Below, piece by piece: positions 2,221 to 40,751 of a stretch of 64,000 nucleotides of DNA. Positions within the stretch are counted from its first letter, which is position 1. Each line of letters begins with the position of its first letter. The notes under the pieces were generated by a model. The model did no database searches, was not told the origin of the DNA, and saw only the letters and a program-made list of their open reading frames with translations. The translations under genes were made by a program, and so were the position numbers. Source of the DNA: Candidatus Oxydemutatoraceae bacterium (GTDB taxonomy: Bacteria; Pseudomonadota; Gammaproteobacteria; Poriferisulfidales; Oxydemutatoraceae); the NCBI GenBank assembly GCA_965211995.1, contig OZ243040.1:1235363-1299362 (forward strand). The letters run 5' to 3'.

Positions 2221-2301
2221 AAATCCGGAATCAGGGATAGAGGCTGTTAAAATCACCGCCGACGGTGCCACGGACGGCGGACACGAAGAATAGAGACTAA
2301 C

Positions 2302-2392
2302 GGAGAGGTGGCCGAGTGGCTGAAGGCGCACGCTTGGAAAGCGTGTATACGGTTCTCCCGTATCGAGGGTTCGAATCCCTCTCTCTCCGCCA
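2302..2392 (+). tRNA. tRNA-Ser (anticodon GGA)
   Basis: GGAGAGGTGGCCGAGTGGCTGAAGGCGCACGCTTGGAAAGCGTG...GGTTCGAATCCCTCTCTCTCCGCCA. Long variable arm, GGA in the anticodon loop, CCA encoded. Confidence 0.85.
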
Positions 2393-2699
2393 TATTTTCA
2401 TCTCGAGAGACTTGCCGTTTAAAAAAACAGGATTTCAAAAGTGGGAAAAACAATAAAAATTTTCCTTGTTGATGGAGAACCTGATGGATTGAAACCCGCC
2501 GAACTAAGCAACCGGGCCGGTCAAACAACAGTTATTCCAAGAAATAAACTCAACGGTATCAAACAACGTTCTTAAGGGATTATAAGAAATAATCATGGCA
2601 AAAACGGAAGGAGACTTCCAGCCGACCATCCAAGACTTTCATTTGAAAAGGCATTTGGCCCACGGAATTTTTGCTTTTTACGGTCTTTATGAAAACGAA

Positions 2700-2810
2700 C
2701 GGCGCCCCTCGTCTGAAACGCCTCAACGCCGATGCCGCCAATGCGAACACCGCGAGCACAACGGCCGCCGCAATGACGATGCTCGGACCCGACAACGCAT
2801 CAATCAAGCA
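2700..2810 (-). pseudogene. fragment homologous to the znuB 3' end (about 35 codons, stop codon lost)
   Basis: Minus-strand translation reads SGPSIVIAAAVVLAVFALAASALRRFRR, against intact ZnuB SGPSIVTAAAGMFAVLALMSPVLARFRQ. DNA is about 70-75% identical to 6096-6200, in the same orientation. Confidence 0.55.
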
Positions 2811-2879
2811 CCCATTTCATCAAGGCGGCATTAGATTGGATCAGGCAAACTTATCCGATTCATTGAAACGCCGATCTAC

Positions 2880-3158
2880 ATGGGAGCCGAACGAGTTAAA
2901 AGCCCGAATCACCCCGCGCAAAAGCCGGTAAAAGTCCTGGAACACGTCATTAACCTTGCCTCGAACGAAGGCGACTTAGTGTTCGCCCCGTTCATGGGCG
3001 TCGGATCGACCGGGGTCGCCGCACTTAATCTGAACAGAAAATTTATCGGCATCGAGGCCGCTGAAAAATATCACGAAGCCGCAAAGAAAAGGCTGAATAA
3101 ACGACCCGCTAAATTATTCGCAGCCAAACGACAACTGAGCATAGCCGGGCAGTTATGA
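2880..3158 (+). pseudogene. C-terminal remnant of an N6/N4 DNA methyltransferase
   Basis: HPAQKPVKVLEHVI...GDLVFAPFMGVGSTGVAALNLNRKFIGIE is the conserved N4/N6 methylase C-terminal block. Only about 90 aa survive, with no N-terminal domain, and the upstream frame is disrupted. Confidence 0.55.
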
Positions 3159-3212
3159 ATATAGAAAGCGCAACATTTAATCGCAGAGAGTAAAAGACGC
3201 GAATGCTCCACC

Positions 3213-3246
3213 GGAAACCAACCGCAGCAAGCTGCGGTTGGTTTCC
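3213..3246. repeat. perfect inverted repeat GGAAACCAACCGCAGC-AA-GCTGCGGTTGGTTTCC (16-bp arms)
   Basis: Seen directly in the sequence, in the spacer between the convergent methylase remnant and hepT. A second perfect palindrome, CCGGACTAGTCCGG, lies about 100 bp further on. Confidence 0.6.
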
Positions 3247-3420
3247 GTCACGCCTACATAGTCGCCATCACGGAATCCCTTCACCTGCTCGCATAATTTC
3301 TGCACCGGCGGCGGCAACTTCTCCATGCGCGAACCGGACTAGTCCGGCACCCAACGGACGCCGGGATCCGGAACGTCCCAGGGGGGACGCGGGAAAATCC
3401 GGGGGAAGTGGCATGGGAAA

Positions 3421-3834
3421 TTATTTCAGTAAGTCGGCAAGTATGCCGGCGAATTCTATTAAGTCATCGGCATCTTTCTTGAGCACCTTTTCCACCAGCG
3501 TATAGTCAATCTCCCGATACTGATGAACGGTGATGTTTCTAAATCCCACCATGCCTTTTAATTTCTCTTCCAACTCAGCATCTATGATGTCCGCTTTCCA
3601 GAGCAAGGTAAAACTCTCGGCGCTTTCAGACGGAAGTCCAAGTTTTTTCAGACGAATTACATGGTTCGCCATGTCAATACACTGTTCGCAGGCTCTCTGT
3701 AAATTAACAACCACCGCATCTTGCTTATAAAAGTCATCGGTGAAAGGTTTTTCCGACGGGATTGCATAATAATCCCGCGCCTGCTTTATGCGCCGCTCTA
3801 TGCTGGCTTTTTTCTGCCAGAGAATATCAGACAT
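3421..3834 (-). CDS. hepT: HepT-family HEPN toxin (DUF86, nucleotidyltransferase substrate-binding protein-like)
   Basis: 137 aa. The Rx4HxY HEPN motif is present (RNITVHQY). It overlaps the upstream mntA by 8 nt. Confidence 0.8.
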   Translation of the reverse strand: MSDILWQKKASIERRIKQARDYYAIPSEKPFTDDFYKQDAVVVNLQRACEQCIDMANHVIRLKKLGLPSESAESFTLLWKADIIDAELEEKLKGMVGFRNITVHQYREIDYTLVEKVLKKDADDLIEFAGILADLLK

Positions 3835-4267
3835 CGTAAAACCTCCCGGTATTCAAACCACTTTCAACGATTTCCCGACGCTCCTCATTCAGTTTTTGAT
3901 AAAAAGACAGCGTCAGCATTTCAAATTCATCAGCCGCATTCTCATCAGCGCAGTAAATGCGCCGGTCGGCGGCGATAATTTCCTTGCGCAGAATCACCGG
4001 AGCCGTGCGTAGATTGACTAAATCAATACGATCCACTTTTGCGGCTGATGCAACTTCAACTGAAAGGTGGCCCCACGTTGAATAGTCAATGTCTCGCGCC
4101 GTTGTATTCGGAAGGAGCACGGCGATGTCCAAGTCGCTATCCTGGCGCTGGTATTCGGTGCCCCAGGTGCCGTAGATGTAAATGGCCTGGGTTTTGGGGT
4201 AAGCTTTCAAAATAGAATCAACAGATCTAGCAACAAATACTTCGATGCGTTTGGGAACAATAGTCAT
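3827..4267 (-). CDS. mntA: MntA-family minimal nucleotidyltransferase antitoxin
   Basis: 146 aa. The NTase motif GTWGTEYQRQDSDLDIAV (GS...DxD) is present. It overlaps the upstream gene by 4 nt and hepT by 8 nt. Confidence 0.8.
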   Translation of the reverse strand: MTIVPKRIEVFVARSVDSILKAYPKTQAIYIYGTWGTEYQRQDSDLDIAVLLPNTTARDIDYSTWGHLSVEVASAAKVDRIDLVNLRTAPVILRKEIIAADRRIYCADENAADEFEMLTLSFYQKLNEERREIVESGLNTGRFYDV

Positions 4268-5058
4268 AACTTATATCCCCAAATTTTATTGCGGTCTACA
4301 TGGCTCGTCATATCGGAGCATCGGTTTCCAGCGTGCTTTAACCACGAAAACATCCAAAGAAACCAAACAAAAAGAGAATTATCTTCTAGACACAAAAAAT
4401 CAAACATCTCGTTTCCTATTGCATCACGTTTAACTGGGGCTAGAGGTTTCTCATACGGACTATTCGGCTGACTCAATTTTGACAAAGATCGGTATGAACC
4501 ACCCGAAACAAGAAATTTTCCTGGGACAACAATGAAATCTGGGGATTCTCTATTAGGAATATCTTTAAGTATTAATTGAAGATTTTTTTTGACTGTCTTT
4601 GAGGCCGGTGCATCAAACGCCCAAAGGGTGAATAGCGAGTCCTTGATTTGTGGTATATGAGAATCACCGAACTCCCGAAGAAGTGTCTTGAACTTCCGAC
4701 ATTTTTTAACTGCATCTTGAATATCACGCGGATTGAGTTGCGTCTTAACTTCAATCAGGCTGTAAACAGATTCAACTAGGAAAATTTTTTTAGACATCTC
4801 TGAATGTAAACAGGTATTCCATATTTCATCATAAATAACTAAATCGGCTTCATTCGAAAATACCCCATTATGAGAAGTAATTAGTCCTGTATCCACGCCA
4901 AAGGCAGATGGCGGGTGTTTGCTTAAAAAATCAGCAAGAATACCTTCCCTGTTTTGCCCTGCTGAAAGATTGTGTGAGGTGAAATCACGATGGATACGTT
5001 CATGTTGGGAAGACATCTCCTTTGAGATTTCCCTCAGATATTCAGGCAACATGCTCAC
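4264..5058 (-). CDS. hypothetical protein with a PD-(D/E)xK-like nuclease motif, first gene of the mntA-hepT operon
   Basis: 264 aa (262 aa if the ATG at 5052, which has a GGAG RBS, is used). The motif ...EADLVIYDE...(x20)...LIEVK fits the D...(D/E)xK core. I recognise no named family. It overlaps the mntA start by 4 nt. Confidence 0.6.
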   Translation of the reverse strand: MSMLPEYLREISKEMSSQHERIHRDFTSHNLSAGQNREGILADFLSKHPPSAFGVDTGLITSHNGVFSNEADLVIYDEIWNTCLHSEMSKKIFLVESVYSLIEVKTQLNPRDIQDAVKKCRKFKTLLREFGDSHIPQIKDSLFTLWAFDAPASKTVKKNLQLILKDIPNRESPDFIVVPGKFLVSGGSYRSLSKLSQPNSPYEKPLAPVKRDAIGNEMFDFLCLEDNSLFVWFLWMFSWLKHAGNRCSDMTSHVDRNKIWGYKL

Positions 5059-5104
5059 ACTCCAATCTCCAAAATCTTCATCGTGTCATTCCCGAATATA
5101 TCCA

Positions 5105-5138
5105 CCACCTTGACGGCGATCTTCCGCCGTCAAGGTGG
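5105..5138. promoter_or_regulatory. perfect 14-bp inverted repeat CCACCTTGACGGCG-ATCTTC-CGCCGTCAAGGTGG about 50 nt upstream of the three-gene operon
   Basis: Seen directly. It overlaps the stop codon of the decayed upstream gene and is followed by a TATATT -10-like element and then a GGAG RBS. Candidate operator and/or terminator. Confidence 0.4.
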
Positions 5139-5139
5139 G

Positions 5140-5733
5140 CATTCTTGTTTCACGCTGGTCAATTCCAGCGAGCGGTCTTTCTTGGTGCGGAAACTTTGCC
5201 ATTCGTTTTCAAAGATGTAGTCGCCGCTCCATTGTTTTTCGGTTTCGCCGGTGTCTTCGTTTTTGACGCGGATGATTTCGCGTTTGCTTTCGAAGTCGAA
5301 GTCCACGGCTCAGTAGTCTATCCAGTCGGTTCAATGTTTGATTAGTTGTTCGCGGGAGATTTTACCATTTTTGTCTTTGCTGACGCGCACAATCTGGCCG
5401 TGGTCGGCGACAATTTTGGTTTTGCCGTCTTTGAGGGATTCTTCGGCGTTGGCGATACCCTGGGAGTAGTGTACGGAGAAGTCGGTCAATTCCACGGGCA
5501 CCGAAGCAAGTCCCCCTGACAAGAAGGATTTAGGGGGTTGCCTGTTCTCAACCCGACTCAGCAAATCAGTATGGACCCCTTCAAGATTATTCAGGATTGG
5601 TCTTACCCCGTTTTAACGGATACCGGTTTAGACTGAGGCCTCCTGCTGTTCATACACGACGGGCAGCGGCCTGCCGGCTTCGAGCAACCTTACGGCATCG
5701 CGCTTTTCACTATCTGTTAATTTCATTCGTTAG
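5140..5733 (-). pseudogene. remnants of one or more decayed genes of unknown function (in-frame stops)
   Basis: The minus-strand reading is broken by two in-frame stops: ...ISREQLIKH* TDWIDY* AVDFDFESKREIIRVKNEDTGETEKQWSGDYIFENEWQ... A 32-aa MKLTDSEKRDAVRLLEAGRPLPVVYEQQEASV stub sits at about 5635-5733. Confidence 0.35.
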
Positions 5734-6095
5734 TCGCTCCGCCGGGCGGCTGCTTAACTTGTTTTAATGACCAAATACATGCGCCCGCAAATCACGCCGA
5801 GATGGCTGCAAGCCTGCGGATTCGCCACGGGCTTCGACCGCAGATGACCTGCCCCTGAAGCATATACCAACAGCAACTTAGGAAAATTCATAGTGGCAAA
5901 TCCACACGCCCCGCTCCAGTTGCTGTTGCAGTATCTTCATGCAGGACCGCCACTTTGAACAGCGCGTAAAGCGAACTGCCCGCAGGGCGCGCGACGGAGA
6001 TAAATCTTATTTTTCCCGATCACCGGTTCAAATCTCGCTTGCAGAAAAACGTTTAACTCCCGCTATCAGGCTTATGCACGGCGGCTCCCCCGTAA

Positions 6096-6911
6096 CTATT
6101 GCCTGAAACGCGCAAGCACCGGCGACATCAATGCAAGCACCGCGAACATGCCGGCCGCCGCGGTGACGATGCTCGGGCCCGACGGCGTGTCAAACTTCAC
6201 CGAGCCGAAAATGCCGCCGATCACCGCGAGCACGCCGATCACCGCCGCGGCCACGGCCATCGCTTCGGGCGAGCGCGCCAACTGACGGGCGGCGGCGGCG
6301 GGAATAACCAGCAGCGCCGTGATCAGCAGGATGCCGACGATACGGATCGACACCGCCACCACGATCGTCATCAGAAACATCAGCAGCAACTGCGTCCAAA
6401 AAACACTTACGCCTTCCGCTTTGGCCAGGTCTTCGTGCACGGCCATCAGCACCAGCGACGGCCAGTTGACGAACAGCAGGCCGAGCACCACAACGCCGCC
6501 GCCGTAGATCCAATACAACTCTTGCGGCGTGACGGTCAGGACGTCGCCAAACAGGTAGCCGTGCAGATCAAAGCGCGGATTATCCAGAAAACTGATCGCC
6601 ACCATCCCGACGGCGAGCGCGGCGTGGGCCAGAATGCCGAGCAAGGTATCCGTCGCCAGCACCCGCTTTTGCTGCAGCCACACCAGCAGCACTGCAAAGA
6701 CGGAGCAGACCAGCACCGTCCCCGGACCGACGCCGAAGCCGTAGAGCAGGCCGAGGGCGACACCGAGCAAAGCGCTGTGGGCGAGCGAGTCGCCGAAATA
6801 AGCCATGCGCCGCCACACCACGAAGCAACCGAGCGCACCCGCAACGAGGGCGACGCCGACGCCCGCGCCCACCGCGCGGAGAATAAAGTCATCGGGCATT
6901 GCTGCCTGCAT
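6096..6911 (-). CDS. znuB: zinc ABC transporter permease ZnuB
   Basis: 271 aa polytopic membrane protein of the ZnuB/MntB family, sitting between znuC and the cluster end. Confidence 0.85.
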   Translation of the reverse strand: MQAAMPDDFILRAVGAGVGVALVAGALGCFVVWRRMAYFGDSLAHSALLGVALGLLYGFGVGPGTVLVCSVFAVLLVWLQQKRVLATDTLLGILAHAALAVGMVAISFLDNPRFDLHGYLFGDVLTVTPQELYWIYGGGVVVLGLLFVNWPSLVLMAVHEDLAKAEGVSVFWTQLLLMFLMTIVVAVSIRIVGILLITALLVIPAAAARQLARSPEAMAVAAAVIGVLAVIGGIFGSVKFDTPSGPSIVTAAAGMFAVLALMSPVLARFRQ

Positions 6912-7620
6912 CGTGCCGGTGGTCGTGCGTATGGTGATAAACCGTCATCATCCGCGCCATGTCGTCTCCGAACAGCGATATGAACTGCGGGTCTTTGGCG
7001 ACCGCCTGCGGCTCGCCGGAGCAGCACACGTGATGGAACAGGCACACCACCTTTCTGGTGCAGGACATCACCAAATGCAAATCGTGGGACACCATCAAAA
7101 TGCTGAGATCGCGCTCAGCGTAAATACGTTCCAGCAGTTTGTAGAACGCCAGTTGGCCTGAGACGTCGAGGTTCTGCGCGGGTTCATCCAGGATCAGCAA
7201 CTCCGGGGAATCCAGCAGCGCACGGGTCAGCAGCACGCGCTGCAATTCGCCTCCGGAAAGCGCATGCAGCGGCTTTGCGAGCAGCGCCCGAACGGCGGTT
7301 TCCTCTCCCGCCTTGCGGATCGCCGGGTCGTCCGCTCTTTTCCGCAGCGTCAGAAAACGCCGAACCGTGATCGGCATAACGCGGTCAACGGTCAGGGACT
7401 GAGGCACGTAGCCGATCTTGACGCCCCGTTTGCGAACGACGCCGCCTTTATCCGGCTCATAAAACCCCATCAGGCATTTAAGCAGCATTGATTTCCCCGC
7501 GCCGTTGGGGCCGATGACGGTAATAAAGTCACGTTCGCCGATCGTGAACGACACGTCTTTCAGAATCGCCCGCCGTTCACGGAAGACACTGACCTTCTCC
7601 GCCGTGATGAGTCCGTTCAT
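6889..7620 (-). CDS. znuC: zinc ABC transporter ATP-binding protein ZnuC
   Basis: Walker A GPNGAGKS, ABC signature LSGGELQ and Walker B LILDEP are present, plus a His-rich C-terminal tail. Start taken at MNGLITAEK. Confidence 0.85.
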   Translation of the reverse strand: MNGLITAEKVSVFRERRAILKDVSFTIGERDFITVIGPNGAGKSMLLKCLMGFYEPDKGGVVRKRGVKIGYVPQSLTVDRVMPITVRRFLTLRKRADDPAIRKAGEETAVRALLAKPLHALSGGELQRVLLTRALLDSPELLILDEPAQNLDVSGQLAFYKLLERIYAERDLSILMVSHDLHLVMSCTRKVVCLFHHVCCSGEPQAVAKDPQFISLFGDDMARMMTVYHHTHDHRHDAGSNAR

Positions 7621-7621
7621 T

Positions 7622-8089
7622 TCACGCCTCCCCGCGCCTGCATTCCCGGCACTTCCCCTCAATCTCCAAAGTGGTGTGCCTGGGCTCAAATTGATTCCTG
7701 CCGGTCGCTTTCCGGATCGCCCGCTTCAATTCGCCGCTGCAACACTCCTCGATCTCCCCGCAAGTGGAGCAAAACAGAAAATAACATTCATCGTGCTGCA
7801 GCGGATGGCTGCACCCGACGTAGGCGTTGAGACTGTTAAGCCGGTGCGCCAAGCCGTTGACCAGTAAAAAGTCCAGCGCCCGATACACCGTCGGCGGCTT
7901 GGCGCCGGCGGTGCCGACACCCAGTTTTTTCAAAATGTCGTAGGCTTTCGCCGGGCGGTGGCTCGCCCAGATCAGCCGCAGCACCTTGCGGCGCAATTTG
8001 GTGAAGCGCGCTTCCCGGTCGCGGCAAACCGCTTCAGCGTTGAGCAACGCCTCGCTGACGCAATCCTTGTGCGCGTGGCAAACCTGCAC
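7622..8089 (-). CDS. zur: zinc uptake regulator Zur (Fur family)
   Basis: Aligns with E. coli Zur (AKPPTVYRALDFLL, C-x2-C pairs). A GTG start preceded by GGGGGAGG gives about 155 aa. The upstream ATG at 8132-8134 would fall inside the Zur box, so I did not use it. Confidence 0.75.
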   Translation of the reverse strand: MQVCHAHKDCVSEALLNAEAVCRDREARFTKLRRKVLRLIWASHRPAKAYDILKKLGVGTAGAKPPTVYRALDFLLVNGLAHRLNSLNAYVGCSHPLQHDECYFLFCSTCGEIEECCSGELKRAIRKATGRNQFEPRHTTLEIEGKCRECRRGEA

Positions 8090-8117
8090 GGCGGCCTCCC
8101 CCGGAGCCACATAAGTT

Positions 8118-8134
8118 ACGTTATAATATAACAT
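8118..8134. promoter_or_regulatory. Zur box (GTTATA-a-TATAAC dyad) in the zur/znuA divergent region
   Basis: ACGTTATAATATAACAT matches the proteobacterial Zur-box core TGTTATAwTATAACA. It abuts the znuA ATG at 8136. Confidence 0.65.
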
Positions 8135-8135
8135 A

Positions 8136-9104
8136 ATGCGGAAAACGCTTGCCTGCTTCCTATCCGCGCTGCTTGCGGCCGGCGGCGCCCTCGCGGCGAC
8201 CGCGACCGACGGCAACGGCGTCGTGGTCAGCATCAAACCTCTGCACGCACTGGTGCAAGGGGTAATGGGCGGCACCGGAGAAGCTCGATTGCTGGTCGCA
8301 GACAACGCTTCACCCCACGGCTTCTCCTTCAAACCCTCGCACCTAAAGGCACTGCACGAGGCCGACGTCGTCTTTTACATTGACGAAACGTTCGAGCCGT
8401 TCCTGCACGGCGTCTTTGAAACCTTGCCGGCGCACGTGCGCAAAAACGCGGTGGCGCGGGCGGCGAACTTGACCGTTCTTGACCGCCGCGCAGGCGGCGC
8501 CTGGGAAGCGCACGCCCACGCAAGCCACGCACAAGAGGCCGGCGAAGAAGCCGAAGAAAACCGCAACAATCGCGACCCGCACGTGTGGCTCGACCCCGGC
8601 AACGCGAAAAAGATCGTAACGGCCGTCACCGGGGAACTCGGCGAGATTCACCCCGAAAACCGCGGTGTTTACAGGCACAACGCCCGCGCCGTGACCGCCC
8701 GCCTCGACGCGCTCGAGGCAAGGCTGGAGCGGGAACTCGCCGGCGTCCGCGACGTGCCGTTCGTCGTATTCCACGATGCTTATCAGTATTTTGAGCACCG
8801 TTACGGCCTGACCGGCGTCGGCTCGATCACTTTGAACCCGAACCTGCCTCCTTCGGTGGGCCGCATTCGGGAAATCCGCGGCAAGATCAGCGCCGCCGGC
8901 GCGGTCTGCGTCTTCCGCGAGCCGCAATTCTCCGACCGGCTGATAAAAGCGGTAACCCCCGCGGGCAACGTCAAAAGCGGCGTCCTCGACCCGCTCGGCG
9001 CCGGACTGGAGAACGGGGCGGACTTATATTTCAATCTGCTTGCAAACCTTGCGGAAAACTTCGTGCAATGCCTGGCCGATCCCGAGTCGGCGCGCACCCT
9101 CTAG
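8136..9104 (+). CDS. znuA: periplasmic zinc-binding protein ZnuA
   Basis: Signal peptide, cluster A-I substrate-binding-protein fold, and the characteristic His/acidic-rich loop HAHASHAQEAGEEAEENRNNRDPH. Confidence 0.85.
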   Translation: MRKTLACFLSALLAAGGALAATATDGNGVVVSIKPLHALVQGVMGGTGEARLLVADNASPHGFSFKPSHLKALHEADVVFYIDETFEPFLHGVFETLPAHVRKNAVARAANLTVLDRRAGGAWEAHAHASHAQEAGEEAEENRNNRDPHVWLDPGNAKKIVTAVTGELGEIHPENRGVYRHNARAVTARLDALEARLERELAGVRDVPFVVFHDAYQYFEHRYGLTGVGSITLNPNLPPSVGRIREIRGKISAAGAVCVFREPQFSDRLIKAVTPAGNVKSGVLDPLGAGLENGADLYFNLLANLAENFVQCLADPESARTL

Positions 9105-9408
9105 GTGTAGTTGCCGAATAGAATCTGAAATTGTCTGACCGATCATGAGTCGGCAGCAACTCCTTGGAGAGGCCCTGTTGTACCCGCAAACCTTACGGAT
9201 TGCAGCAGCTGAGCAGGCCCCCGCTTTTAAAGCCAAGCCCCTGCCGCGAAGCCTTGTTATACCGCTATTTCATCCGTGCCCGACTGCGAATCCGCCCTTG
9301 ATTTTTTCGGCTTCCGGTGGACTCGCTTCCGGCAGCCGTGATATTCTGCAAAATTCACCCCCTGAAAATTTATCGGCGAACCACTCTCAAAAAAACAACG
9401 GAGGCAAC

Positions 9409-10287
9409 ATGAAAAACGGCTTCGCAGGCGTCCGGGTCATTTTATTGTTTGCGCTCGGCTTAACGGCCGCATCCGCAGTTTCACAGGAGCGCAACGGGGC
9501 TTATTGGGGGCTCGACCTCGGCGTGTTTTTCCCGCAAAGCATCGCCTCCGATACCAACACCGACGACGTCGCCTCCACCAGTTGCGACGGCTTTCTGTTT
9601 GATAACTCAGCCCCGGCGTGTGCGCGACGCGGGGTGGATTTTATGAACCGCTTTGATATGGAAACCGGCGTGCTCGGCGGTGCCACTGTCGGATACATGA
9701 TGGACCACTTCCGTTTTGAACTCGAATACCTTTACAGAACGGGCGGAGGAGACACCTCTTCTCTGGGAATCATCAATAACAGAGGGGCCGGGGAGTTCGT
9801 GGTCGCCGATGAAAGCTTGGATGACTTTGAGTCGCACCACCTGTTTGCGAACATGTATTACGACTTTTTGAACAGTTCGAGATTTACGCCGTATTTCGGC
9901 ATCGGCATCGGCTGGACAAAAACCCAAGTTGACTACCAGGGGCTTTTTATCAGAAACAGCGCCGAGGTCTTCAGGAGTACTCCCGGCCTGAGAGACGTTG
10001 AAGCGGCGGCCGGAACCGTCTCCCGCAGCGAAGAAGAACTCGACGACGATGGATTCGGCTATCAACTTCTGGTCGGAGCCGATTACTGGATTGCGGAACA
10101 TCTTTCTCTCGGCATGAAAATCCGCTATGCCGAATTCGACGGGATCAGCGACGGACGCCACGAATGGGACCTGCTCAGAAGCCATGAATCGGCGCTCGAG
10201 CCCGGCGGCGACCGCGTCACCCTTGATGTTGACACCGACGATATTCGGTTCTGGGGCGCCTCGCTGAACCTGAAATACCAATTCTAG
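9409..10287 (+). CDS. outer-membrane beta-barrel protein (OmpA-like/Opa-like surface barrel family)
   Basis: Signal peptide MKNGFAGVRVILLFALGLTAASAVS, alternating amphipathic strands, C-terminal ...LNLKYQF ending in Phe. RBS GGAGG precedes the start. Confidence 0.6.
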   Translation: MKNGFAGVRVILLFALGLTAASAVSQERNGAYWGLDLGVFFPQSIASDTNTDDVASTSCDGFLFDNSAPACARRGVDFMNRFDMETGVLGGATVGYMMDHFRFELEYLYRTGGGDTSSLGIINNRGAGEFVVADESLDDFESHHLFANMYYDFLNSSRFTPYFGIGIGWTKTQVDYQGLFIRNSAEVFRSTPGLRDVEAAAGTVSRSEEELDDDGFGYQLLVGADYWIAEHLSLGMKIRYAEFDGISDGRHEWDLLRSHESALEPGGDRVTLDVDTDDIRFWGASLNLKYQF

Positions 10288-10336
10288 CCCGCATTTTTCA
10301 CGCGCGGGCGACGCGACGGGTTCACGGCGGAGAATT

Positions 10337-11299
10337 TCAATAACCGTCGGAGGTTGAGAACCATTTGTAACAGGAATGCCCCAGCCAGCGCCGAAAATGC
10401 CGAACCCCGGCGCACGGGCGGTAACGCCAAGACTTCTCCCTCGGTTTCTCCCGCGTTCTGAAAATCTCCTCAAATCTCGAAACGATGTTCTTTTCTTCCA
10501 GAAACCCGGGCTTGCGGTTATCCGAGAACGCCGGCTCGCTTAAATACTGCCGGTACAAATCATCGTTCCGATCCACTTCGATGACTCTTTGGATCACCGC
10601 GTCCCAACCGTCATAATCGCGGCAATTAATGAACGCTTTGGGGTTGAACTGCCGGTGCACCAACGGATCCCCCCAATAAATCGGAACGGTCGCACCGCCC
10701 AGTGCGTTCACCAGTTTTTCAGTGATATAGGCGGGATGTGAATTATTTTCAAAAGCGATCGTAAACTTGTAGGGACGATAAAAACCGGGCGTGCCGCCCG
10801 CATATCCGGGAACGCGCTTGCCCATGTTATTAAACGCCGCCCCGCCGGCGTCCACGCGCTTATATTCGGACAGTTTATGCAAAAAATCATTCCTGTATGC
10901 GACCCCCGGGTAGTAATTGAACAGTGTTCTCGGTCTCTTTCTGGAATAAACAAAATTGCAAAACCTGGTCTTTAATTTCATCAGTTCATCCACGTCTTTT
11001 TCCGCAAACAGCAACGGATACAGGGGCGAGAAAAAGTAGCCCGGCAGGTAATAATTCCTGCTTGAAGCGGGCGACATGCTGAAAGCGAAATCGTAATTGT
11101 AAAGATCCAGATTGCTTCTTTCATAAGTGTAAAAAATGCGGATGCATTGGTAGCGGCGATAATTGAGGCCCCCGGTCGAGCAGATCAAAAAATCCGGCGT
11201 ATCGCTGATTTCGAGGTCAAAATGCCCGGATAAAAAATCGCGCAACTTACCAGTCCAAGCGATGTTATCCGTAAACTGAATCTTGATGGGCCTGTTCAT
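10337..11299 (-). CDS. GT10 alpha-1,3-fucosyltransferase
   Basis: Carries the FucT signature ...KFTIAFENNSHPAYITEKLVNA... (FENS...Y[IV]TEK). GC content is clearly below the flanks (roughly 50%) and it lies adjacent to tRNA-Met. Confidence 0.75.
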   Translation of the reverse strand: MNRPIKIQFTDNIAWTGKLRDFLSGHFDLEISDTPDFLICSTGGLNYRRYQCIRIFYTYERSNLDLYNYDFAFSMSPASSRNYYLPGYFFSPLYPLLFAEKDVDELMKLKTRFCNFVYSRKRPRTLFNYYPGVAYRNDFLHKLSEYKRVDAGGAAFNNMGKRVPGYAGGTPGFYRPYKFTIAFENNSHPAYITEKLVNALGGATVPIYWGDPLVHRQFNPKAFINCRDYDGWDAVIQRVIEVDRNDDLYRQYLSEPAFSDNRKPGFLEEKNIVSRFEEIFRTREKPREKSWRYRPCAGVRHFRRWLGHSCYKWFSTSDGY

Positions 11300-11350
11300 G
11301 TCCTTGGTCGTGAGTTCCGGGGCACAGCAACGCCGCCGACCGGAGAAGAC

Positions 11351-11426
11351 GGTGGCTATGGCTGGACTTGAACCAGCGACACCGGCATTATGAATGCCGT
11401 GCTCTAACCGACTGAGCTACATAGCC
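11351..11426 (-). tRNA. tRNA-Met (anticodon CAU; elongator, or possibly the tRNA-Ile2 lysidine type)
   Basis: The reverse complement GGCTATGTAGCTCAGTCGGTTAGAGCACGGCATTCATAATGCC...GGTTCAAGTCCAGCCATAGCCACC is close to E. coli metT. Confidence 0.8.
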
Positions 11427-11479
11427 ACAACCCGCTTATTTTAGTACACCACCGAAAGCCCCGCAATCAATGCCGCGGT

Positions 11480-12574
11480 TCAGACGTTAAAGCGGAAATG
11501 CACGACGTCGCCTTCACACACGGCGTAATCCTTGCCTTCCAGCCGCAACTTGCCCGCCTCTTTGGCGCCGTGTTCGCCACCGCAGGCGACGTAGTCCTCG
11601 TAGGCGATCACTTCGGCGCGGATGAACCCTTGCTCAAAGTCGCTGTGGATGCAGCCGGCGGCCTGCGGCGCAAGCGACCCTGTCCGCGTCGTCCAGGCAC
11701 GCGCCTCTTTCGGGCCCGCGGTAAAAAAAGTCAGCAACTCGAGCGCCCGGTAACCCGCCGCGATCACGCGCTCGAGCCCCGACGCGCCGTCTCCCGCGTC
11801 CTCGGCAAAGGCCGCGCGCTCTTGTTCGTCGAGTTCCTGCAACTCGGCCTCAAGTTTCGCGCTCACCGTCAGCAGTTCCAGCCCATTGGCGTCAACGTAT
11901 TTGCGCACTTCGTCCACGCGGCGCGCGCCGTCCTCCCCCCCGCCTTCATCCACGTTGGCCACCACGATCATCGGCTTCGCCGTGATCAGGTTCAGTTCAC
12001 GCGCGGCGGCGCGTTCGGCGGCGTCGAGTTCCAACCCGCGCACGGGCTTGCCCTGAGCCAACTCGTCATAGAGGCGTTGCGCCGCGCGGCGGCGCGCGAG
12101 TTCATCTTTGCCGCCCGCCTTCGCGGCTTTTTCCGCACGCGCGGCGGCGCGTTCGGCGACCTCAAGATCGGCGAGCAGCAACTCGGTGCCGATGGTTTCG
12201 ATATCGGCGACCGGATCGACCCGGTCCGCGACGTGGATCACCTCGCCGCCTTCAAAGCAACGCACCACCTGGGCGATCGTGTGCGTGCGGCGGATATGCT
12301 CGAGAAAGCGGTTGCCGAGCCCCTCGCCCTTTGATGCGCCTGCGACCAACCCGGCGATATCCACGAATTCAAGCACGGTCGGAATCGTCCGCCGTGATTT
12401 TGCGATCCGTGAAATCCTGTCAAGACGCTCGTCGGGCACCGGCACCGTGCCGATGTTCGGCTCGATCGTGCAAAAAGGATAGTTCTCGGCGCCGACGCCC
12501 ATCCGAGTCAGCGCGTTGAACAACGTCGACTTGCCGACGTTCGGCAACCCGACAATGCCGCACTTAAAGCCCAT
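11480..12574 (-). CDS. ychF: ribosome-binding ATPase YchF (Obg-family GTPase)
   Basis: MGFKCGIVGLPNVGKSTLFNALT... G1 motif, TGS C-terminal domain. Start taken at MGFK. Confidence 0.9.
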   Translation of the reverse strand: MGFKCGIVGLPNVGKSTLFNALTRMGVGAENYPFCTIEPNIGTVPVPDERLDRISRIAKSRRTIPTVLEFVDIAGLVAGASKGEGLGNRFLEHIRRTHTIAQVVRCFEGGEVIHVADRVDPVADIETIGTELLLADLEVAERAAARAEKAAKAGGKDELARRRAAQRLYDELAQGKPVRGLELDAAERAAARELNLITAKPMIVVANVDEGGGEDGARRVDEVRKYVDANGLELLTVSAKLEAELQELDEQERAAFAEDAGDGASGLERVIAAGYRALELLTFFTAGPKEARAWTTRTGSLAPQAAGCIHSDFEQGFIRAEVIAYEDYVACGGEHGAKEAGKLRLEGKDYAVCEGDVVHFRFNV

Positions 12575-13160
12575 CGTGCCCGCCGTCTCTGTCGGCGTGC
12601 AGCGCATTGACCGCCGCGTCAAATTCGCCTTGCACGAGTTGCGCGATCACCGCCAGCGCGCAACCGAAACTCGCGCGGATGCCGGCCTCCTCCTCCATGC
12701 TCGCGTCTCCCAATACATGCGACACCACCCGCTCTTTGCTGCCGGGGTGACCGACGCCGATGCGCAACCGCCAGAAATCGGCGCCGAGGTACGCAATGAC
12801 GTCGCGCAGACCGTTGTGCCCGCCGTGGCCGCCGCCCCGCTTCAGCCGCACCCGCGCCGCCGGAAAATCAATTTCGTCGTGCGCGACCAACACCCGTTCC
12901 ATCGCGACTTTGTGAAACGCGGTGAACGCCTGCAAGGCGCGGCCGCTCTGATTCATGTAGGCCGCGGGCTTGAACAGCCACACCGGCGTCCCGGCGATCT
13001 CCACGCGCGCACTCGCGCCGTGCAGTTTCGGTTTGCCCTGCAACTCCGCGCTATATTCGCGCGCGAGCCGATCTACAAACCAGAAACCCGCGTTATGGCG
13101 GTTGTTCTCGTATTCCGCACCGGGATTGCCAAGACCGGCGATCAAAGTGATGCCGCTCAT
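12564..13160 (-). CDS. pth: peptidyl-tRNA hydrolase
   Basis: MSGITLIAGLGNPGAEYENNRHNAGF..., 198 aa. The upstream part of the ORF is an Arg-rich artefact. Confidence 0.9.
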   Translation of the reverse strand: MSGITLIAGLGNPGAEYENNRHNAGFWFVDRLAREYSAELQGKPKLHGASARVEIAGTPVWLFKPAAYMNQSGRALQAFTAFHKVAMERVLVAHDEIDFPAARVRLKRGGGHGGHNGLRDVIAYLGADFWRLRIGVGHPGSKERVVSHVLGDASMEEEAGIRASFGCALAVIAQLVQGEFDAAVNALHADRDGGHDGL

Positions 13161-13215
13161 ACGGTTTGAAGCAATGCTGAAGTGACGCGGCGGCCGGGCG
13201 GGCGCCGCGCCGGCT

Positions 13216-13917
13216 TTATTTCTTGTCGGGCGACTTCGGAGCTTCGGCCTGTTCCGCGGTGTCTTTCTCCGCGTCGGCTCCTTCTTCAGCCTCGGCGGCG
13301 TCCGCGGCCGCTTCGGCGGCGGCTTCCTCTTCCTCGATGACGCGCGGCCTGAACACGCTGACGATCGCGCTGTCGCTCTCCTCACCGTGCGCCAACGCAA
13401 CGAGGGTCACGCCGTCGGGCGCTTTGATGTCGGACAGATGCAGCGACTGCCCGAGGTTGAGTTGCGCAATATCGACTTCGATGAATTCGGGCAGGTCTTT
13501 CGGCAGGCACGACACTTCGACGTCGGTTTGCAGGTGATTGACCACGCCGCCTTCCTGCTTGACGCCGACGCACTCCTCCTGGCCTGCAAAGTGCAGCGGC
13601 ACATGCACCTTGATCTCCTGATCCTCCCTGATGCGCAGCAGATCCAAATGCAGGATCTGAAATTTGCTCGGGTGGCGCTGCAAGTCGCGCAGAATAACGC
13701 GCTCCTCCTTGCCGTTTACTTTCAGGTTCAGGATGTGCGAATAAAAAGCCTCATGTTCGAGGTGACGGATCAGTTCGTTGAATTGTACCGACAGATGCAC
13801 CGGTTCGCCGCCGCCGTACACCACCGCCGGCACCCGCCCGGCCTCGCGCAGACGCCGCATGGCGCTCCTGCCCGTATCGCTGCGCAGGCTTGCGTTCAAC
13901 TCAAATTGATTCTGCAT
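13216..13917 (-). CDS. rplY: 50S ribosomal protein L25 / general stress protein Ctc (long form with acidic tail)
   Basis: MQNQFELNASLRSDTGRSAMRRLREAGRVPAVVYGG... plus a C-terminal Glu/Ala-rich tail. Confidence 0.85.
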   Translation of the reverse strand: MQNQFELNASLRSDTGRSAMRRLREAGRVPAVVYGGGEPVHLSVQFNELIRHLEHEAFYSHILNLKVNGKEERVILRDLQRHPSKFQILHLDLLRIREDQEIKVHVPLHFAGQEECVGVKQEGGVVNHLQTDVEVSCLPKDLPEFIEVDIAQLNLGQSLHLSDIKAPDGVTLVALAHGEESDSAIVSVFRPRVIEEEEAAAEAAADAAEAEEGADAEKDTAEQAEAPKSPDKK

Positions 13918-14033
13918 GGCTGTGTTTCCAAGTCCGCCGCACCGGCGAAACAAGCACGTAGCCCGCCATTATACACAACGGCGCCGGCCATCCGCCCGCT
14001 TCAGAATAACGCGGACTTGTCTCGCGCAGCCGG

Positions 14034-14996
14034 TTACTCCACGAACAGGCTGCTGACGGACGACTCCTCGTGGATGTTGTAGATCGACTTGGCCAGCACC
14101 TCGGCGATGCTGATCTGACGGATGCGCCCGCATTGCGCCGCCTCCTGCGACAGCGGAATCGTGTCGGTCACAACCAGTTCATCGAGCACCGACGCGGCGA
14201 TGTTCGCGGCCGCGCCGCCCGACAGCACCGGGTGCGTCGCGTACGCGACGACCTGCTCCGCACCCCGTCCTTTCAAGGCCTCGGCGGCACGGCACAAAGT
14301 GCCCGCGGTATCAACCAGATCGTCAATGATGACGCAGGATTTGCCCTCGACGTCGCCGATAACGTTCATCACTTTCGCTTCGTTCGGGCGCGGGCGCCGC
14401 TTGTCTATGATCGCGAGGTCGGCGTCATCGAGGCGCTTGGCGATCGCGCGGGCCCTGACCACACCGCCGACGTCGGGCGACACCACCACCCGGTCGGCGC
14501 CGACCCGCTTGGAAACGTCGCCGATCAGCACCGGCGAGGCGTAAACGTTGTCCACCGGCATATTGAAAAAGCCCTGCACCTGCTCGGCGTGCAGGTCCAC
14601 GGTCAGCACGCGGCTGGTCGAAACGCGGTCTATCATGTCGGCGACCACCTTGGCCGAGATTGGCACGCGCATCGAGTGCACCCTGCGGTCCTGGCGGCAG
14701 TAGCCGAAGTAAGGGATCACCGCCGTGATCCTGCTCGCCGACGCGCGGTGCAACGCGTCCACCATGATCAACAACTCCATCAAGTGATCGTTGGTCGGCA
14801 CGCAGGTCGGCTGGATCACGAACACGTCGCCGCCTCTGACGTTCTCGCCGATCTCGACGCGGATCTCGCCGTCGCTGAAGCGGTCAACAACGGCGTTGCC
14901 TAATTTCATTTTCAGGCAGCCGGCGATGCGCTCGGCAAGCGGGCGGTTGGCGTTGCCGGAAAACAACACGATGCGGGCGGGGCCGTTGTGCATCAT
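14034..14996 (-). CDS. prs: ribose-phosphate pyrophosphokinase
   Basis: Prs family, PRPP-binding motif [12 protein letters not shown]. Confidence 0.9.
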
Positions 14997-38036: not shown

Positions 38037-40307
<2,271 letters not shown>

Positions 40308-40332
40308 TCATGCCAAGCCCTGAGTGAGCAAT

Positions 40333-40420
40333 CGGTTCATCCCCACCCGCGTGGGGAACACAATAGCTAAATTATTTTTTTGATTTTTCGCCGGTTCATC
40401 CCCACCCGCGTGGGGAACAC
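40333..40420 (-). CRISPR. orphan CRISPR remnant, type I-E-like: two 29-nt repeats GTGTTCCCCACGCGGGTGGGGATGAACCG flanking one 30-nt spacer
   Basis: Repeats at 40333-40361 and 40392-40420 are identical, palindromic-core and I-E-like. The spacer is GCGAAAAATCAAAAAAATAATTTAGCTATT. An AT-rich (about 42% GC) leader-like stretch runs 40421-40700 on the transcription-proximal side. No cas genes are in the window. Confidence 0.7.
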
Positions 40421-40751
40421 GTGATACGCCAGTGGGTGCCACGAAGTCCCGGAACCTTCAACTGAATTGGCCTTACCCCAAAAATTAAGGCTATTTCCAG
40501 ATAAAACCATGTCACTGTCTCTTTTAATATTCTCAGTCATATTTGCTCTCTTGAAGCCGAAGCATTGCGTAATTTCTGCCTGACCGATCACAAAATATAG
40601 GGTGATTCCGCCTGTGTCAGTTATCTGGTGGAGAACCAGGGTGCCTTCGTGGATAGACTTCCCGCCCTCTGCAATCAGCAACGGTATCCACATTTCACCT
40701 TTGATATTATATGCTTCTCATCGCCCAATCATCGGCAAGCCGAGAAACATT

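What the first reader, a model, noticed from the sequence alone, without database searches (positions are those of the whole stretch)
2393..6095. AT-rich degraded genomic island inserted at the 3' end of tRNA-Ser(GGA)
GC content drops sharply right after the tRNA and recovers near 5.75 kb. The interval holds only gene fragments (a methylase C-terminus, a znuB-like stub, multi-stop remnants) plus the TA-like operon. No integrase or recognisable att repeat survives, so this looks like an old, eroded island with one selected module. A weak 3'-tRNA-like stretch (ACCGGTTCAAATCTCGC) sits near 6030.
Basis: seen in the sequence. Interest (0 to 1): 0.55.

Follow-up and report, generated by a model that had tools for sequence, protein, structure and literature searches.

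The report
Decayed restriction-system island beside tRNA-Ser
The AT-rich stretch between tRNA-Ser(GGA) and znuB is real foreign DNA: mostly the wreck of a type III restriction-modification operon whose embedded nuclease and toxin-antitoxin genes are still intact, a well-known kind of eroded defence island.

Summary
Bases 2393-6095 have 47% GC against 63 +/- 4% elsewhere, and GC3 is 0.27-0.63 against 0.72-0.83 in host genes. A relative with the same gene order (L031) has only 277 bp between tRNA-Ser(GGA) and znuB. Another (L043) has 3.3 kb of unrelated genes there, so this gap is a variable hotspot.

The content is a composite, not one island. The core (3198-5726, minus strand) is a decayed type III R-M operon. 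mod keeps 25 N-terminal codons plus about 180 C-terminal codons with three stops. res keeps 72 codons with frameshifts.

Between them sit three intact, overlapping genes: a NucC-fold DUF6602 nuclease, mntA and hepT. Bases 4115-5521 are 92% identical to an intact mod-DUF6602-NTase-res locus in an unrelated 2.8-Mb genome (L034).

To the left lie three unrelated scraps: a GIY-YIG nuclease N-terminus, a type II methylase C-terminus and a 97-nt copy of the znuB tail. That copy forms a 73-75% direct repeat with the resident znuB tail and brackets most of the interval.

There is no integrase and no tRNA-derived att repeat. The "tRNA-like" stretch at 6022-6038 is at chance level. How the DNA was inserted remains unresolved.

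This is an ordinary, eroded defence island of modest interest.

The parts
2302..2392 (+). tRNA-Ser(GGA). It forms the left border of the variable region. The next 9 nt (2393-2401, TATTTTCAT) are shared with relative L031.
   Evidence: ARAGORN; Rfam tRNA, 57 bits; alignments.
2441..2575 (+). The first 43 codons of a GIY-YIG nuclease family gene (PADLOC candidate PDC-S14; the full protein is about 300 aa). It is a truncated fragment.
   Evidence: PADLOC PDC-S14, E 6e-12, profile positions 16-57 of 301. tblastn hits to annotated GIY-YIG nuclease genes on plasmids. GC 0.40, GC3 0.27.
2576..2712 (.). Unassigned filler (GC 0.44). It includes a weak hairpin plus T-run at 2701-2722 on the minus strand, directly after the znuB-tail copy.
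   Evidence: Terminator scan. The fold z-score is only -1.6. It shows no similarity to the right-hand spacer.
2713..2809 (-). A 5'-truncated copy of the last 32 codons of znuB, with the stop codon lost. It is the left arm of a diverged direct repeat with 6103-6193.
   Evidence: the repeat finder D2: 91 nt, 75% identity. Codon alignment. Identity is 73% to the resident tail, 68% to L032 and 57% to L031. Alignment score 70 against 23.5 +/- 2.1 for shuffles.
2877..3158 (+). C-terminal third of a beta-class (type II-like) N6/N4 DNA methyltransferase. It has the AdoMet motif FxGxG but lacks the catalytic DPPY region, so it is a fragment.
   Evidence: Pfam PF01555 positions 160-221 of 221. PADLOC MTase_II positions 187-256 of 260. 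Only 37% identical to the Mod of L034.
3198..3414 (-). Remnant of the type III res gene: about 72 N-terminal codons, with a frameshift near codon 9, one stop, a 2-nt deletion, and then truncation. It contains a perfect 17-bp palindrome at 3212-3247.
   Evidence: tblastn with L034 Res (893 aa): aa 1-11 are 100% identical and aa 7-64 are 66% identical. DNA alignment. Palindrome.
3421..3834 (-). hepT, the type VII toxin (a HEPN RNase). It is intact and the RnitvHqY motif is present.
   Evidence: Pfam HepT-like, E 3e-30. NCBIfam HepT_toxin, 136 bits against a cut-off of 60. Matches PDB 6m6u/5yep, E 1e-29.
3827..4267 (-). mntA, the adenylyltransferase antitoxin. It is intact and the G[ST]x10DxD motif is present. 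It overlaps hepT by 8 nt.
   Evidence: Pfam Polbeta, E 8e-16. NCBIfam MntA_antitoxin, 86.5 bits against a cut-off of 60. Matches PDB 5yep_A, E 2e-13, with the motif aligned.
4264..5052 (-). Intact DUF6602 protein (262 aa), a NucC-fold PD-(D/E)xK nuclease of the same domain family as the single-gene defence 'Damona'. Its TGA stop overlaps the mntA ATG (ATGA).
   Evidence: Pfam DUF6602, E 2e-22. PADLOC PD_DExK E 2e-32 and NucC E 2.5e-20. The AF2 model (pLDDT 85.7) has NucC as its top 14 PDB matches, TM 0.67-0.82. The family-invariant residues D70, E94, E101 and K103 are present. Literature.
5055..5597 (-). C-terminal remnant of the type III mod gene, corresponding to aa 769-982 of the L034 Mod. 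It has three in-frame stops. It contains a perfect 14-bp palindrome at 5105-5138.
   Evidence: tblastn, 71% identity, E 4e-84. blastn, 92.5% identity over 4115-5521 to L034. Matches to methyltransferase genes on plasmids.
5628..5726 (-). N-terminal remnant of mod, a 32-codon ORF (MKLTDSEKRDAVRLLEAGRPLP...). About 740 codons are deleted between it and the C-terminal remnant.
   Evidence: Translation. tblastn to L034 Mod aa 1-25, 56% identity.
5727..5945 (.). Sequence of unassigned origin upstream of mod. It presumably holds the promoter of the former operon. The right edge of the inserted DNA lies somewhere in this stretch.
   Evidence: No homologue found. GC 0.54.
5946..6095 (.). Native tRNA-Ser/znuB spacer. 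Bases 5946-5993 are homologous to the unique 74 nt of the L031 spacer.
   Evidence: Local alignment, 36 of 48 matches, score 41 against 18.2 +/- 2.1 for shuffles. Chance-level tests.
6096..6911 (-). Resident znuB (the gene call starts at MPDD, 267 aa). Its tail at 6103-6193 is the right arm of the direct repeat. znuC, zur and znuA follow.
   Evidence: NCBIfam ZnuB, E 6e-76. P0001 is 100% identical. Repeat.

Best explanation
The interval is a pile of horizontally acquired, mostly dead defence genes. It sits in a variable gap between the 3' end of tRNA-Ser(GGA) and the 3' end of znuB.

Its core was a type III restriction-modification operon: mod, then a DUF6602 (NucC-fold) nuclease, mntA, hepT, then res. 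It probably came from a lower-GC donor. In this genome mod lost about 740 internal codons and gained three stop codons. res was cut down to about 72 frameshifted codons. The restriction system is therefore dead.

The three embedded, translationally coupled genes remain intact. They are presumably still transcribed from the old mod promoter (inferred). The most likely reason they persist is addiction: losing mntA while the HepT RNase is present is toxic (inferred from what is established for type VII toxin-antitoxin systems). An extra anti-phage benefit from the nuclease is possible (inferred).

To the left lie debris from other events: a GIY-YIG nuclease start, a type II methylase end, and a foreign or displaced copy of the znuB tail.

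The entry route is not settled. One possibility is a tRNA-targeting integrase whose gene and attR are now gone. The other is recombination through the znuB tail, which would explain the 97-nt flanking repeat.
For: - **Foreign composition.** GC is 0.474 against 0.631 +/- 0.040 outside, and GC3 is 0.27-0.63 against 0.72-0.83 in host genes.
- **Variable site.** L031 (ZnuB 79% identical, same FDH-DUF1820-tRNA-Ser-znuBC-zur-znuA order) has a 277-bp spacer. L043 (ZnuB 76%) has 3.26 kb of unrelated genes. The sequences diverge 0-10 nt after the tRNA in all three genomes.
- **Native spacer.** It resumes at 5946-5993.
- **R-M identity.** Mod aa 1-25 and 769-982 and Res aa 1-64 of L034 map to 5726-5652, 5597-5058 and 3414-3222, with stops and frameshifts. 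L034 Mod matches PADLOC MTase_III (E 2e-112) and L034 Res matches REase_III (E 9e-20).
- **Recurring architecture.** Intact loci show the same layout: L034 has mod-DUF6602-Polbeta-res, and L035-38 have mod-...-DUF6602-...-Polbeta-HepT-res.
- **Horizontal transfer.** There is 92.5% DNA identity over 1407 nt to L034, which lies in a different genomic context, and the cassette is AT-rich there too (0.39 against 0.58-0.64 in the flanks).
- **Possible donor type.** The L035 and L039 loci (16.8 kb each) have GC of about 0.45, similar to the cassette.
- **Intact cassette.** Family cut-offs are passed and catalytic motifs are present. The fold is NucC. The genes overlap by 4 nt and 8 nt. The 4-nt overlap is conserved in L034 and L039.
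- **Long-term constraint.** dN/dS against L039 is 0.12-0.23 for all three genes.
- **Literature.** HEPN genes embedded in R-M operons are a known theme (PMC3710099). DUF6602 is the domain of the 'Damona' defence gene.
Against: - No closer relative than 79% ZnuB identity exists in the collections. No empty site or intact island is therefore available in the same species, and the boundaries rest on one 48-nt homology and a 9-nt trailer.
- Selection on the cassette in this lineage is not demonstrated. DUF6602 against L034 gives dN/dS 0.73 (35 nonsynonymous, 13 synonymous changes), which is compatible with neutrality. Only about one nonsense hit would be expected there by chance.
- Transcription and activity are untested.
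- The promoter scan found nothing convincing upstream of the cassette.
- The origin of 2576-2712, 2810-2876 and 5727-5945 is unknown.
Confidence: 0.8

Rival explanations
1. This is a classical tRNA-targeting integrative island. A tyrosine-integrase element inserted into the 3' end of tRNA-Ser(GGA), and later deletions removed the integrase and attR.
For: - The variable DNA starts 0-10 nt after the tRNA in three lineages.
- L031 carries a 104-nt, 99% direct repeat that begins with the last 19 nt of the same tRNA. This looks like an att scar and shows that the tRNA is used as an integration site in this clade.
- The first gene after the tRNA is a defence-type GIY-YIG fragment.
Against: - There is no integrase or recombinase within about 9 kb.
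- There is no second copy of the tRNA 3' end at up to 3 mismatches in 16-25 nt.
- The best tRNA-like stretch is at chance level.
- The related intact R-M loci (L034, L035-38) are not next to tRNAs and carry no integrase.
Confidence: 0.3
2. The DNA entered through the znuB tail. A circular or linear DNA carrying a homologous znuB 3' end, for example an island excised imprecisely from the same hotspot in a related genus, recombined with the resident znuB tail. The recombination could have been Campbell-type or homology-facilitated illegitimate. It left one native and one xenologous tail as direct repeats around the cargo.
For: - A 91-97-nt direct repeat (73-75% identity) brackets 2810-6102.
- Both copies keep the ZnuB reading frame across 32 codons.
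- The longest near-identical block, TGACGATGCTCGG(A/G)CCCGAC, lies at the inner edge of the homology.
- The left copy reproduces the native geometry: tRNA facing a znuB tail 320 nt away, followed by a hairpin plus T-run.
- The divergence equals that between orthologues of different genera. It is far larger than the decay seen in the mod remnant (92% identity to an intact gene). One copy therefore arrived already diverged.
- A parallel exists in L035-38, where the last 40 nt of mod are duplicated exactly at the border of an inserted gene block.
Against: - 27% divergence is high for RecA-dependent recombination.
- The identical block encodes the conserved SGPSIV motif, so it may simply reflect protein conservation.
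- No protein in 5.8 billion sequences has a tail close to the stub.
- The two spacers share no similarity, so which copy is native cannot be told.
- The GIY-YIG fragment lies outside the repeats and needs a separate event.
Confidence: 0.35
3. This is ancestral, native low-GC intergenic or core DNA that merely looks foreign. No horizontal transfer is involved.
For: The neighbouring native DUF1820 gene is also somewhat low in GC (0.51), so local GC dips occur in native DNA.
Against: - Syntenic relatives lack the region.
- GC3 is far below that of host genes, whereas DUF1820 keeps GC3 of 0.73.
- There is 92.5% DNA identity to a locus in a different genome and context.
- The content is made of defence-gene fragments.
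Confidence: 0.03

Closest known systems
Type III restriction-modification systems (mod-res, EcoP15I-like) carrying embedded second-line defence genes. The paradigm is the HEPN anticodon nuclease PrrC inside the type Ic R-M locus EcoprrI (Anantharaman et al. 2013, PMC3710099).
   Same: - A HEPN RNase gene sits, with other genes, between the methylase and the restriction subunit in one operon.
- The same layout is seen intact in L034 and L035-38.
- Mod and Res of those loci match the PADLOC MTase_III and REase_III models.
   Different: - The frame here is type III, not type I.
- The embedded genes are a NucC-fold nuclease plus a two-gene HepT/MntA module, not an ABC-HEPN fusion.
- In the window, mod and res are pseudogene scraps, so no R-M activity can remain.
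Type VII toxin-antitoxin system HepT/MntA (Shewanella oneidensis SO_3166/SO_3165; PMC7641770).
   Same: - Both NCBIfam equivalog cut-offs are passed.
- The Rx4HxY motif, with the Tyr that is AMPylated in SO_3166, is present.
- The G[ST]x10DxD motif is present.
- The antitoxin gene lies upstream and overlaps the toxin gene.
   Different: It is preceded by, and translationally coupled to, a third gene (DUF6602). It also sits inside a former R-M operon. Activity was not tested.
NucC, the cA3-activated endonuclease effector of CBASS and type III CRISPR, and the single-gene DUF6602 defence 'Damona' from Vibrio chromosomal integrons (bioRxiv 10.1101/2024.07.02.601686).
   Same: - The full-length predicted fold matches NucC (TM 0.67-0.82).
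- The D...ExK catalytic residues align.
- The Pfam domain is DUF6602, as in Damona.
   Different: - Sequence identity to NucC is 15-18%.
- There is no CD-NTase or Cas10 nearby.
- cA3 binding is untested.
- Unlike Damona and the more distant homologues (L040-L042), this subclade is coupled to a Polbeta nucleotidyltransferase gene.
tRNA-associated genomic or defence islands (P4-like integrase islands at tRNA 3' ends).
   Same: It adjoins a tRNA 3' end, has deviant composition, differs in content between relatives, and carries defence-gene cargo.
   Different: There is no integrase and no tRNA-derived direct repeat. The only flanking repeat derives from the neighbouring znuB gene.

Membership tests
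tRNA-targeting integrative genomic island | Inserted DNA starts at or within the 3' end of a tRNA gene. | tested here: met
   The window, L031 and L043 diverge 0-10 nt after the CCA end of tRNA-Ser(GGA).
tRNA-targeting integrative genomic island | A direct repeat of the tRNA 3' end (attR) lies at the far border. | tested here: not met
   No second copy at up to 3 mismatches. The best local match is equalled by 54 of 300 shuffles.
tRNA-targeting integrative genomic island | An integrase or recombinase gene lies next to the att site. | tested here: not met
   ORF and Pfam survey of 1-11.4 kb: formate dehydrogenase, DUF1820, the island genes, znuBC-zur-znuA, an outer-membrane protein and a GT10 glycosyltransferase. 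No recombinase was found.
tRNA-targeting integrative genomic island | Deviant composition, and absence from related genomes. | tested here: met
   GC 0.474 against 0.631 +/- 0.040. The spacer is 277 bp in L031 and holds different cargo in L043. Only distant relatives (76-79% ZnuB identity) were available.
Type III R-M system | A Mod subunit with a complete N6/N4 methyltransferase domain (catalytic DPPY plus the AdoMet motif). | tested here: not met
   Only aa 1-25 and 769-982 of the homologous 982-aa Mod remain, with three stops. The methyltransferase domain (about aa 37-450 in L034) is deleted.
Type III R-M system | A Res subunit with the SF2 helicase (ResIII) and endonuclease domains. | tested here: not met
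   Only about 72 N-terminal codons remain, frameshifted. The helicase region (aa 280-550 in L034) is absent.
Type III R-M system | Homology of the remnants to a bona fide mod/res pair in operon order. | tested here: met
   71% and 66% aa identity to L034 Mod and Res. The order mod-cassette-res is preserved, and L034 Mod and Res match MTase_III and REase_III.
Type VII TA HepT/MntA | A HepT HEPN domain with Rx4HxY, and a score above the equivalog cut-off. | tested here: met
   136 bits against a cut-off of 60. RNITVHQY aligns to RNIAVHDY of 6m6u.
Type VII TA HepT/MntA | An MntA minimal nucleotidyltransferase with G[ST]x10DxD, lying upstream of and overlapping hepT. | tested here: met
   86.5 bits against a cut-off of 60. 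The motif aligns to 5yep_A. The overlap is 8 nt.
Type VII TA HepT/MntA | Toxicity of HepT, and its neutralisation by AMPylation. | not testable with these tools
   This needs expression and biochemical assays.
NucC / DUF6602 (Damona-like) nuclease | A PD-(D/E)xK fold of NucC type with the catalytic D...ExK residues. | tested here: met
   Pfam DUF6602, 79 bits against a cut-off of 27. AF2 model pLDDT 85.7, with NucC as the top 14 hits. D70, E94, E101 and K103 are invariant in the family and present here.
NucC / DUF6602 (Damona-like) nuclease | For NucC proper: activation by cA3 made by a partner CD-NTase or Cas10. | tested here: not met
   No CD-NTase or Cas10 is in the window interval or in L034-L039. 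The only nucleotidyltransferase is MntA-type. Ligand binding is not testable here.

The most novel reading that the evidence does not exclude
The DUF6602 (NucC-fold) nuclease, the MntA-type nucleotidyltransferase and HepT may be one three-component abortive-infection module rather than two neighbours. In this reading the minimal nucleotidyltransferase controls both effectors, by AMPylation or by making a nucleotide signal. Type III mod-res operons would then act as a frame into which such cassettes are inserted as a second line of defence. The module would be able to outlive the R-M system, as it has here.

Points in favour:
- The ATGA coupling of DUF6602 to the nucleotidyltransferase gene is conserved in three contexts (window, L034, L039).
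- L034 keeps DUF6602 plus the nucleotidyltransferase without HepT.

Points against:
- More distant DUF6602 genes are solitary.
- Damona works as a single gene.
- HepT/MntA is a self-sufficient toxin-antitoxin pair.
Probability: 0.12. Interest if true: 0.55.

Novelty: new member of a known kind. Interest (0 to 1): 0.27.

Why it matters
- It turns a vague "eroded island" into a specific history: a type III R-M operon that died while its embedded toxin-antitoxin and nuclease cargo survived. This is a small, clean example of addiction modules outliving the defence system that carried them.
- It shows the tRNA-Ser(GGA)/znuB gap to be a hotspot with different cargo in each lineage.
- For annotation, mod, res, the type II methylase, the GIY-YIG piece and the znuB stub should be flagged as pseudogene fragments. 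No active R-M system should be predicted at this locus.
- None of this changes current understanding of defence islands.

Tried and rejected
1. **Own genome.** Exact-protein look-ups for it (ZnuB, HepT, P0001) found nothing on record. The genome is one 1.94-Mb contig known only through P0001 and P0121.
2. **Strain-level comparison.** This was impossible. The best ZnuB relative in GTDB representatives is 75% identical and in the 5.8-billion protein set 79%.
3. **A tRNA-derived attR.** Pattern searches and local alignment against shuffles were negative.
4. **Homology between the two spacers** (2393-2712 against 5727-6102). None was found.
5. **A donor for the znuB stub.** A peptide search returned no hit (the first attempt was too short). 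Comparison with 120 ZnuB tails showed the stub equally distant from many, at 18 of 31 at best. Which repeat arm is native therefore stays open.
6. **Is the methylase C-terminus at 2880-3158 the missing part of mod, moved by an inversion?** Rejected: it is 37% identical, against 71% for the true remnant.
7. **Is the palindrome at 3212-3247 a fold-back junction or the methylase terminator?** Rejected: both arms align to res coding sequence of L034 and L038.
8. **DNA searches of plasmids and phages.** Only mod-like methyltransferase genes on two plasmids matched, and nothing matched in phages.
9. **Rfam.** Only the tRNA was found.
10. **Promoter and terminator scan.** No more sites than in shuffles.
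11. **L043 cargo against PADLOC.** No defence family matched, so "defence hotspot" cannot be generalised to that lineage.
12. **Not used.** The metagenome scan and the representative-protein search were left unused, because the protein collection already showed that no close relatives exist.

Full report
**Observation.**
tRNA-Ser(GGA) lies at 2302-2392 on the plus strand. The interval 2393-6095 has 47.4% GC. 500-nt windows outside it average 63.1 +/- 4.0%, and every window from 2251 to 5501 is more than 2 sd low.

GC3 of the reading frames inside is 0.27-0.63, against 0.72-0.83 for fdhA, znuA, znuB and znuC. The drop is patchy. It is lowest (0.38-0.39) at 2400-2700 and 4200-5100, and sits at 0.50-0.54 from 5.1 to 6.0 kb. 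Host level returns only at about 6.0-6.1 kb, not at 5.75 kb.

The lower GC just before the tRNA belongs to the conserved DUF1820 gene (GC3 0.73; syntenic in relatives), so that part is native.

**Is it an insertion?**
The window's own genome is represented only by P0001 and P0121, on one 1.94-Mb contig. The nearest ZnuB is 79% identical, so no strain-level comparison is possible.

Two relatives keep the gene order FDH-DUF1820-tRNA-Ser(GGA)/znuB-znuC-zur-znuA:
- In L031 (79%) the tRNA 3' end and the znuB stop are 277 bp apart.
- In L043 (76%) they are 3.26 kb apart, with four unrelated genes between them: a caspase-like C14 peptidase, a weak NERD hit and two unknowns.

The window has 3.70 kb there. 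Downstream of the tRNA the three genomes diverge after 0-10 nt. Window and L031 share only TATTTTCAT (2393-2401).

On the other side, window 5946-5993 is homologous to the unique 74 nt of the L031 spacer. The match is 36 of 48, with score 41 against 18.2 +/- 2.1 for shuffles. The inserted DNA therefore spans about 2402 to somewhere in 5727-5945. The gap is a hotspot with different cargo in each lineage.

**What the cargo is.**
Three intact genes on the minus strand overlap one another.

- DUF6602 (4264-5052) overlaps mntA through an ATGA.
- mntA (3827-4267) overlaps hepT by 8 nt.
- hepT runs from 3421 to 3834.

HepT and MntA pass the NCBIfam equivalog cut-offs (136 and 86.5 bits against 60). 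They match the Shewanella SO_3166/SO_3165 structures, with Rx4HxY and G[ST]x10DxD aligned.

The DUF6602 protein matches PADLOC PD_DExK and NucC models and NucC sequences in the PDB. A model built from 17 homologues (pLDDT 85.7) has NucC as its top 14 structural matches, with TM 0.67-0.82. The family-invariant residues D70, E94, E101 and K103 are present. DUF6602 is the domain of the single-gene defence 'Damona'.

**The decisive context.**
The closest DUF6602 homologue (P0122, 87% aa) lies in L034, on a 2.77-Mb circular contig. There it sits between a 982-aa Mod and an 893-aa Res, in the order mod-DUF6602-Polbeta-res. That Mod matches PADLOC MTase_III (E 2e-112) and that Res matches REase_III (E 9e-20).

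L035-38 have mod-(extra genes)-DUF6602-...-Polbeta-HepT-res. L039 has the triad without R-M.

Mapping the L034 proteins onto the window gives the following:
- Mod aa 1-25 map to 5726-5652.
- Mod aa 769-982 map to 5597-5058, at 71% identity, with three in-frame stops.
- Res aa 1-72 map to 3414-3198, with a frameshift, a stop and a 2-nt deletion.

Window 4115-5521 is 92.5% identical in DNA to L034. The core of the "island" is therefore a dead type III R-M operon whose embedded cassette survives.

The cassette is AT-rich in L034 as well (0.39 against flanks of 0.58-0.64). It resembles in GC the L035 and L039 loci (0.45 over 16.8 kb each), which points to horizontal spread from lower-GC hosts.

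**Other debris.**
- Bases 2441-2575 hold the first 43 codons of a GIY-YIG nuclease family gene (PDC-S14).
- Bases 2877-3158 hold the last third of a beta-class methyltransferase. It is only 37% identical to the Mod, so it comes from a different gene.
- Bases 2713-2809 hold a 5'-truncated copy of the last 32 codons of znuB.

**The flanking repeat.**
The znuB stub and the resident tail (6103-6193) form a gapless, in-frame direct repeat of 73-75% identity. Its score is 70 against 23.5 +/- 2.1 for shuffles, and it brackets 2810-6102.

The stub is as far from the resident tail (73%) as the tails of different genera are from each other (67-76%). The mod remnant has decayed far less, at 92% to an intact gene. 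One of the two tails therefore arrived already diverged.

The left copy mimics the native geometry, with the tRNA facing a znuB tail 320 nt away. The right-hand spacer, however, is the one homologous to L031. I could not decide which copy is native. No donor-like tail exists among 120 ZnuB homologues or in the large protein set.

This repeat is the only candidate insertion scar. No tRNA-derived repeat and no integrase is present.

**Selection.**
Long-term dN/dS against L039 is 0.12-0.23 for the three genes. On the short branch to L034, DUF6602 gives 0.73 (35 nonsynonymous, 13 synonymous changes), which cannot be told from neutrality.

Intactness is shown. Current selection is inferred only from the logic of toxin-antitoxin addiction.

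**Comparison with known systems and verdict.**
HEPN genes embedded in R-M operons, with PrrC in EcoprrI as the paradigm, are well documented. HepT/MntA is the commonest toxin-antitoxin type (PMC7641770, listed).

This is a new member of a known kind: an eroded defence island, or R-M relic. It missed what the island was, that it is composite, and that the znuB stub is a flanking repeat.

The least ordinary reading still open is that the NucC-fold nuclease, MntA and HepT form one module. The coupling is conserved in three contexts, and L034 keeps the nuclease plus the nucleotidyltransferase without HepT. I put this at about 0.12.

Noticed in passing
window 5105-5138 and 3212-3247: Two perfect palindromes flank the intact cassette. 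One has 14-bp arms and a 6-nt loop (-30.7 kcal/mol, z -7.1). The other has 17-bp arms and a 2-nt loop (-33.5 kcal/mol, z -5.5). In intact homologues (L034, L035, L038) the same coding positions are only quasi-palindromes (9 of 14 pairs at the mod site in L034, by my reading of the alignment). The changes that perfect them in the window are the same changes that create a TGA stop in mod (CCGGGA to CCTTGA) and the 2-nt frameshift in res. This looks like quasi-palindrome template-switch mutation.
   Followed up: partly
L031 10819-10922 and 10997-11100: In the syntenic relative, a 104-nt direct repeat (99% identical, spacing 178 nt) starts with the last 19 nt of tRNA-Ser(GGA) and flanks only 74 nt. 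It looks like an att-like scar of an excised or deleted element at the same tRNA. Each unit also holds a 15-nt inverted copy of the tRNA T-arm.
   Followed up: partly
L043 8838-12096: A third lineage has 3.26 kb of different genes in the same tRNA-Ser/znuB gap: a caspase-like Peptidase_C14 and a weak NERD hit. There is also a 30-nt tandem repeat array at 10169-10348. None of the proteins matches PADLOC.
   Followed up: partly
L035-L038, about 586-626 and 3930-3975: The last 40 nt or so of mod are duplicated exactly at the end of a block of extra genes inserted between mod and DUF6602. Cassettes therefore seem to enter the mod-res frame with duplication of the upstream gene's 3' end. This parallels the znuB-tail repeat in the window.
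   Followed up: partly
L034 10771-11260: The closest intact locus lacks hepT. Its Polbeta gene is about 90% identical to the window's mntA for the first 50 codons, then diverges (56% overall). About 40 nt resembling the hepT 3' end remain before res. This points to a recombination or deletion breakpoint inside mntA.
   Followed up: partly
L035-L038 631-7866: A large set of other defence-like genes sits between mod and res. It includes AAA_15/AAA_21 ATPases, SMC_N/AAA_23 proteins, a second small Polbeta and a SLFN_AlbA_2 plus HATPase_c_4 protein. The type III frame there carries about 9 kb of embedded cargo.
   Followed up: no
window 9001-11300: A second low-GC stretch (0.47-0.55) lies between znuA and tRNA-Met(CAT). 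It holds an outer-membrane beta-barrel gene (9145-10287) and a GT10 fucosyltransferase-like gene (10337-11299). It may be another acquired segment next to a tRNA.
   Followed up: partly
window 39750-40750: A short low-GC dip (0.47-0.54) lies just upstream of a long minus-strand ORF (38037-40277), which I did not identify.
   Followed up: no
L042 (Halomonas elongata, GCA_029081005.1) 7001-14800: A distant DUF6602 homologue heads a run of small same-strand genes: an AadA-like nucleotidyltransferase, glyoxalases and acetyltransferases. The run looks like an integron cassette array, which fits the reported integron origin of Damona.
   Followed up: no
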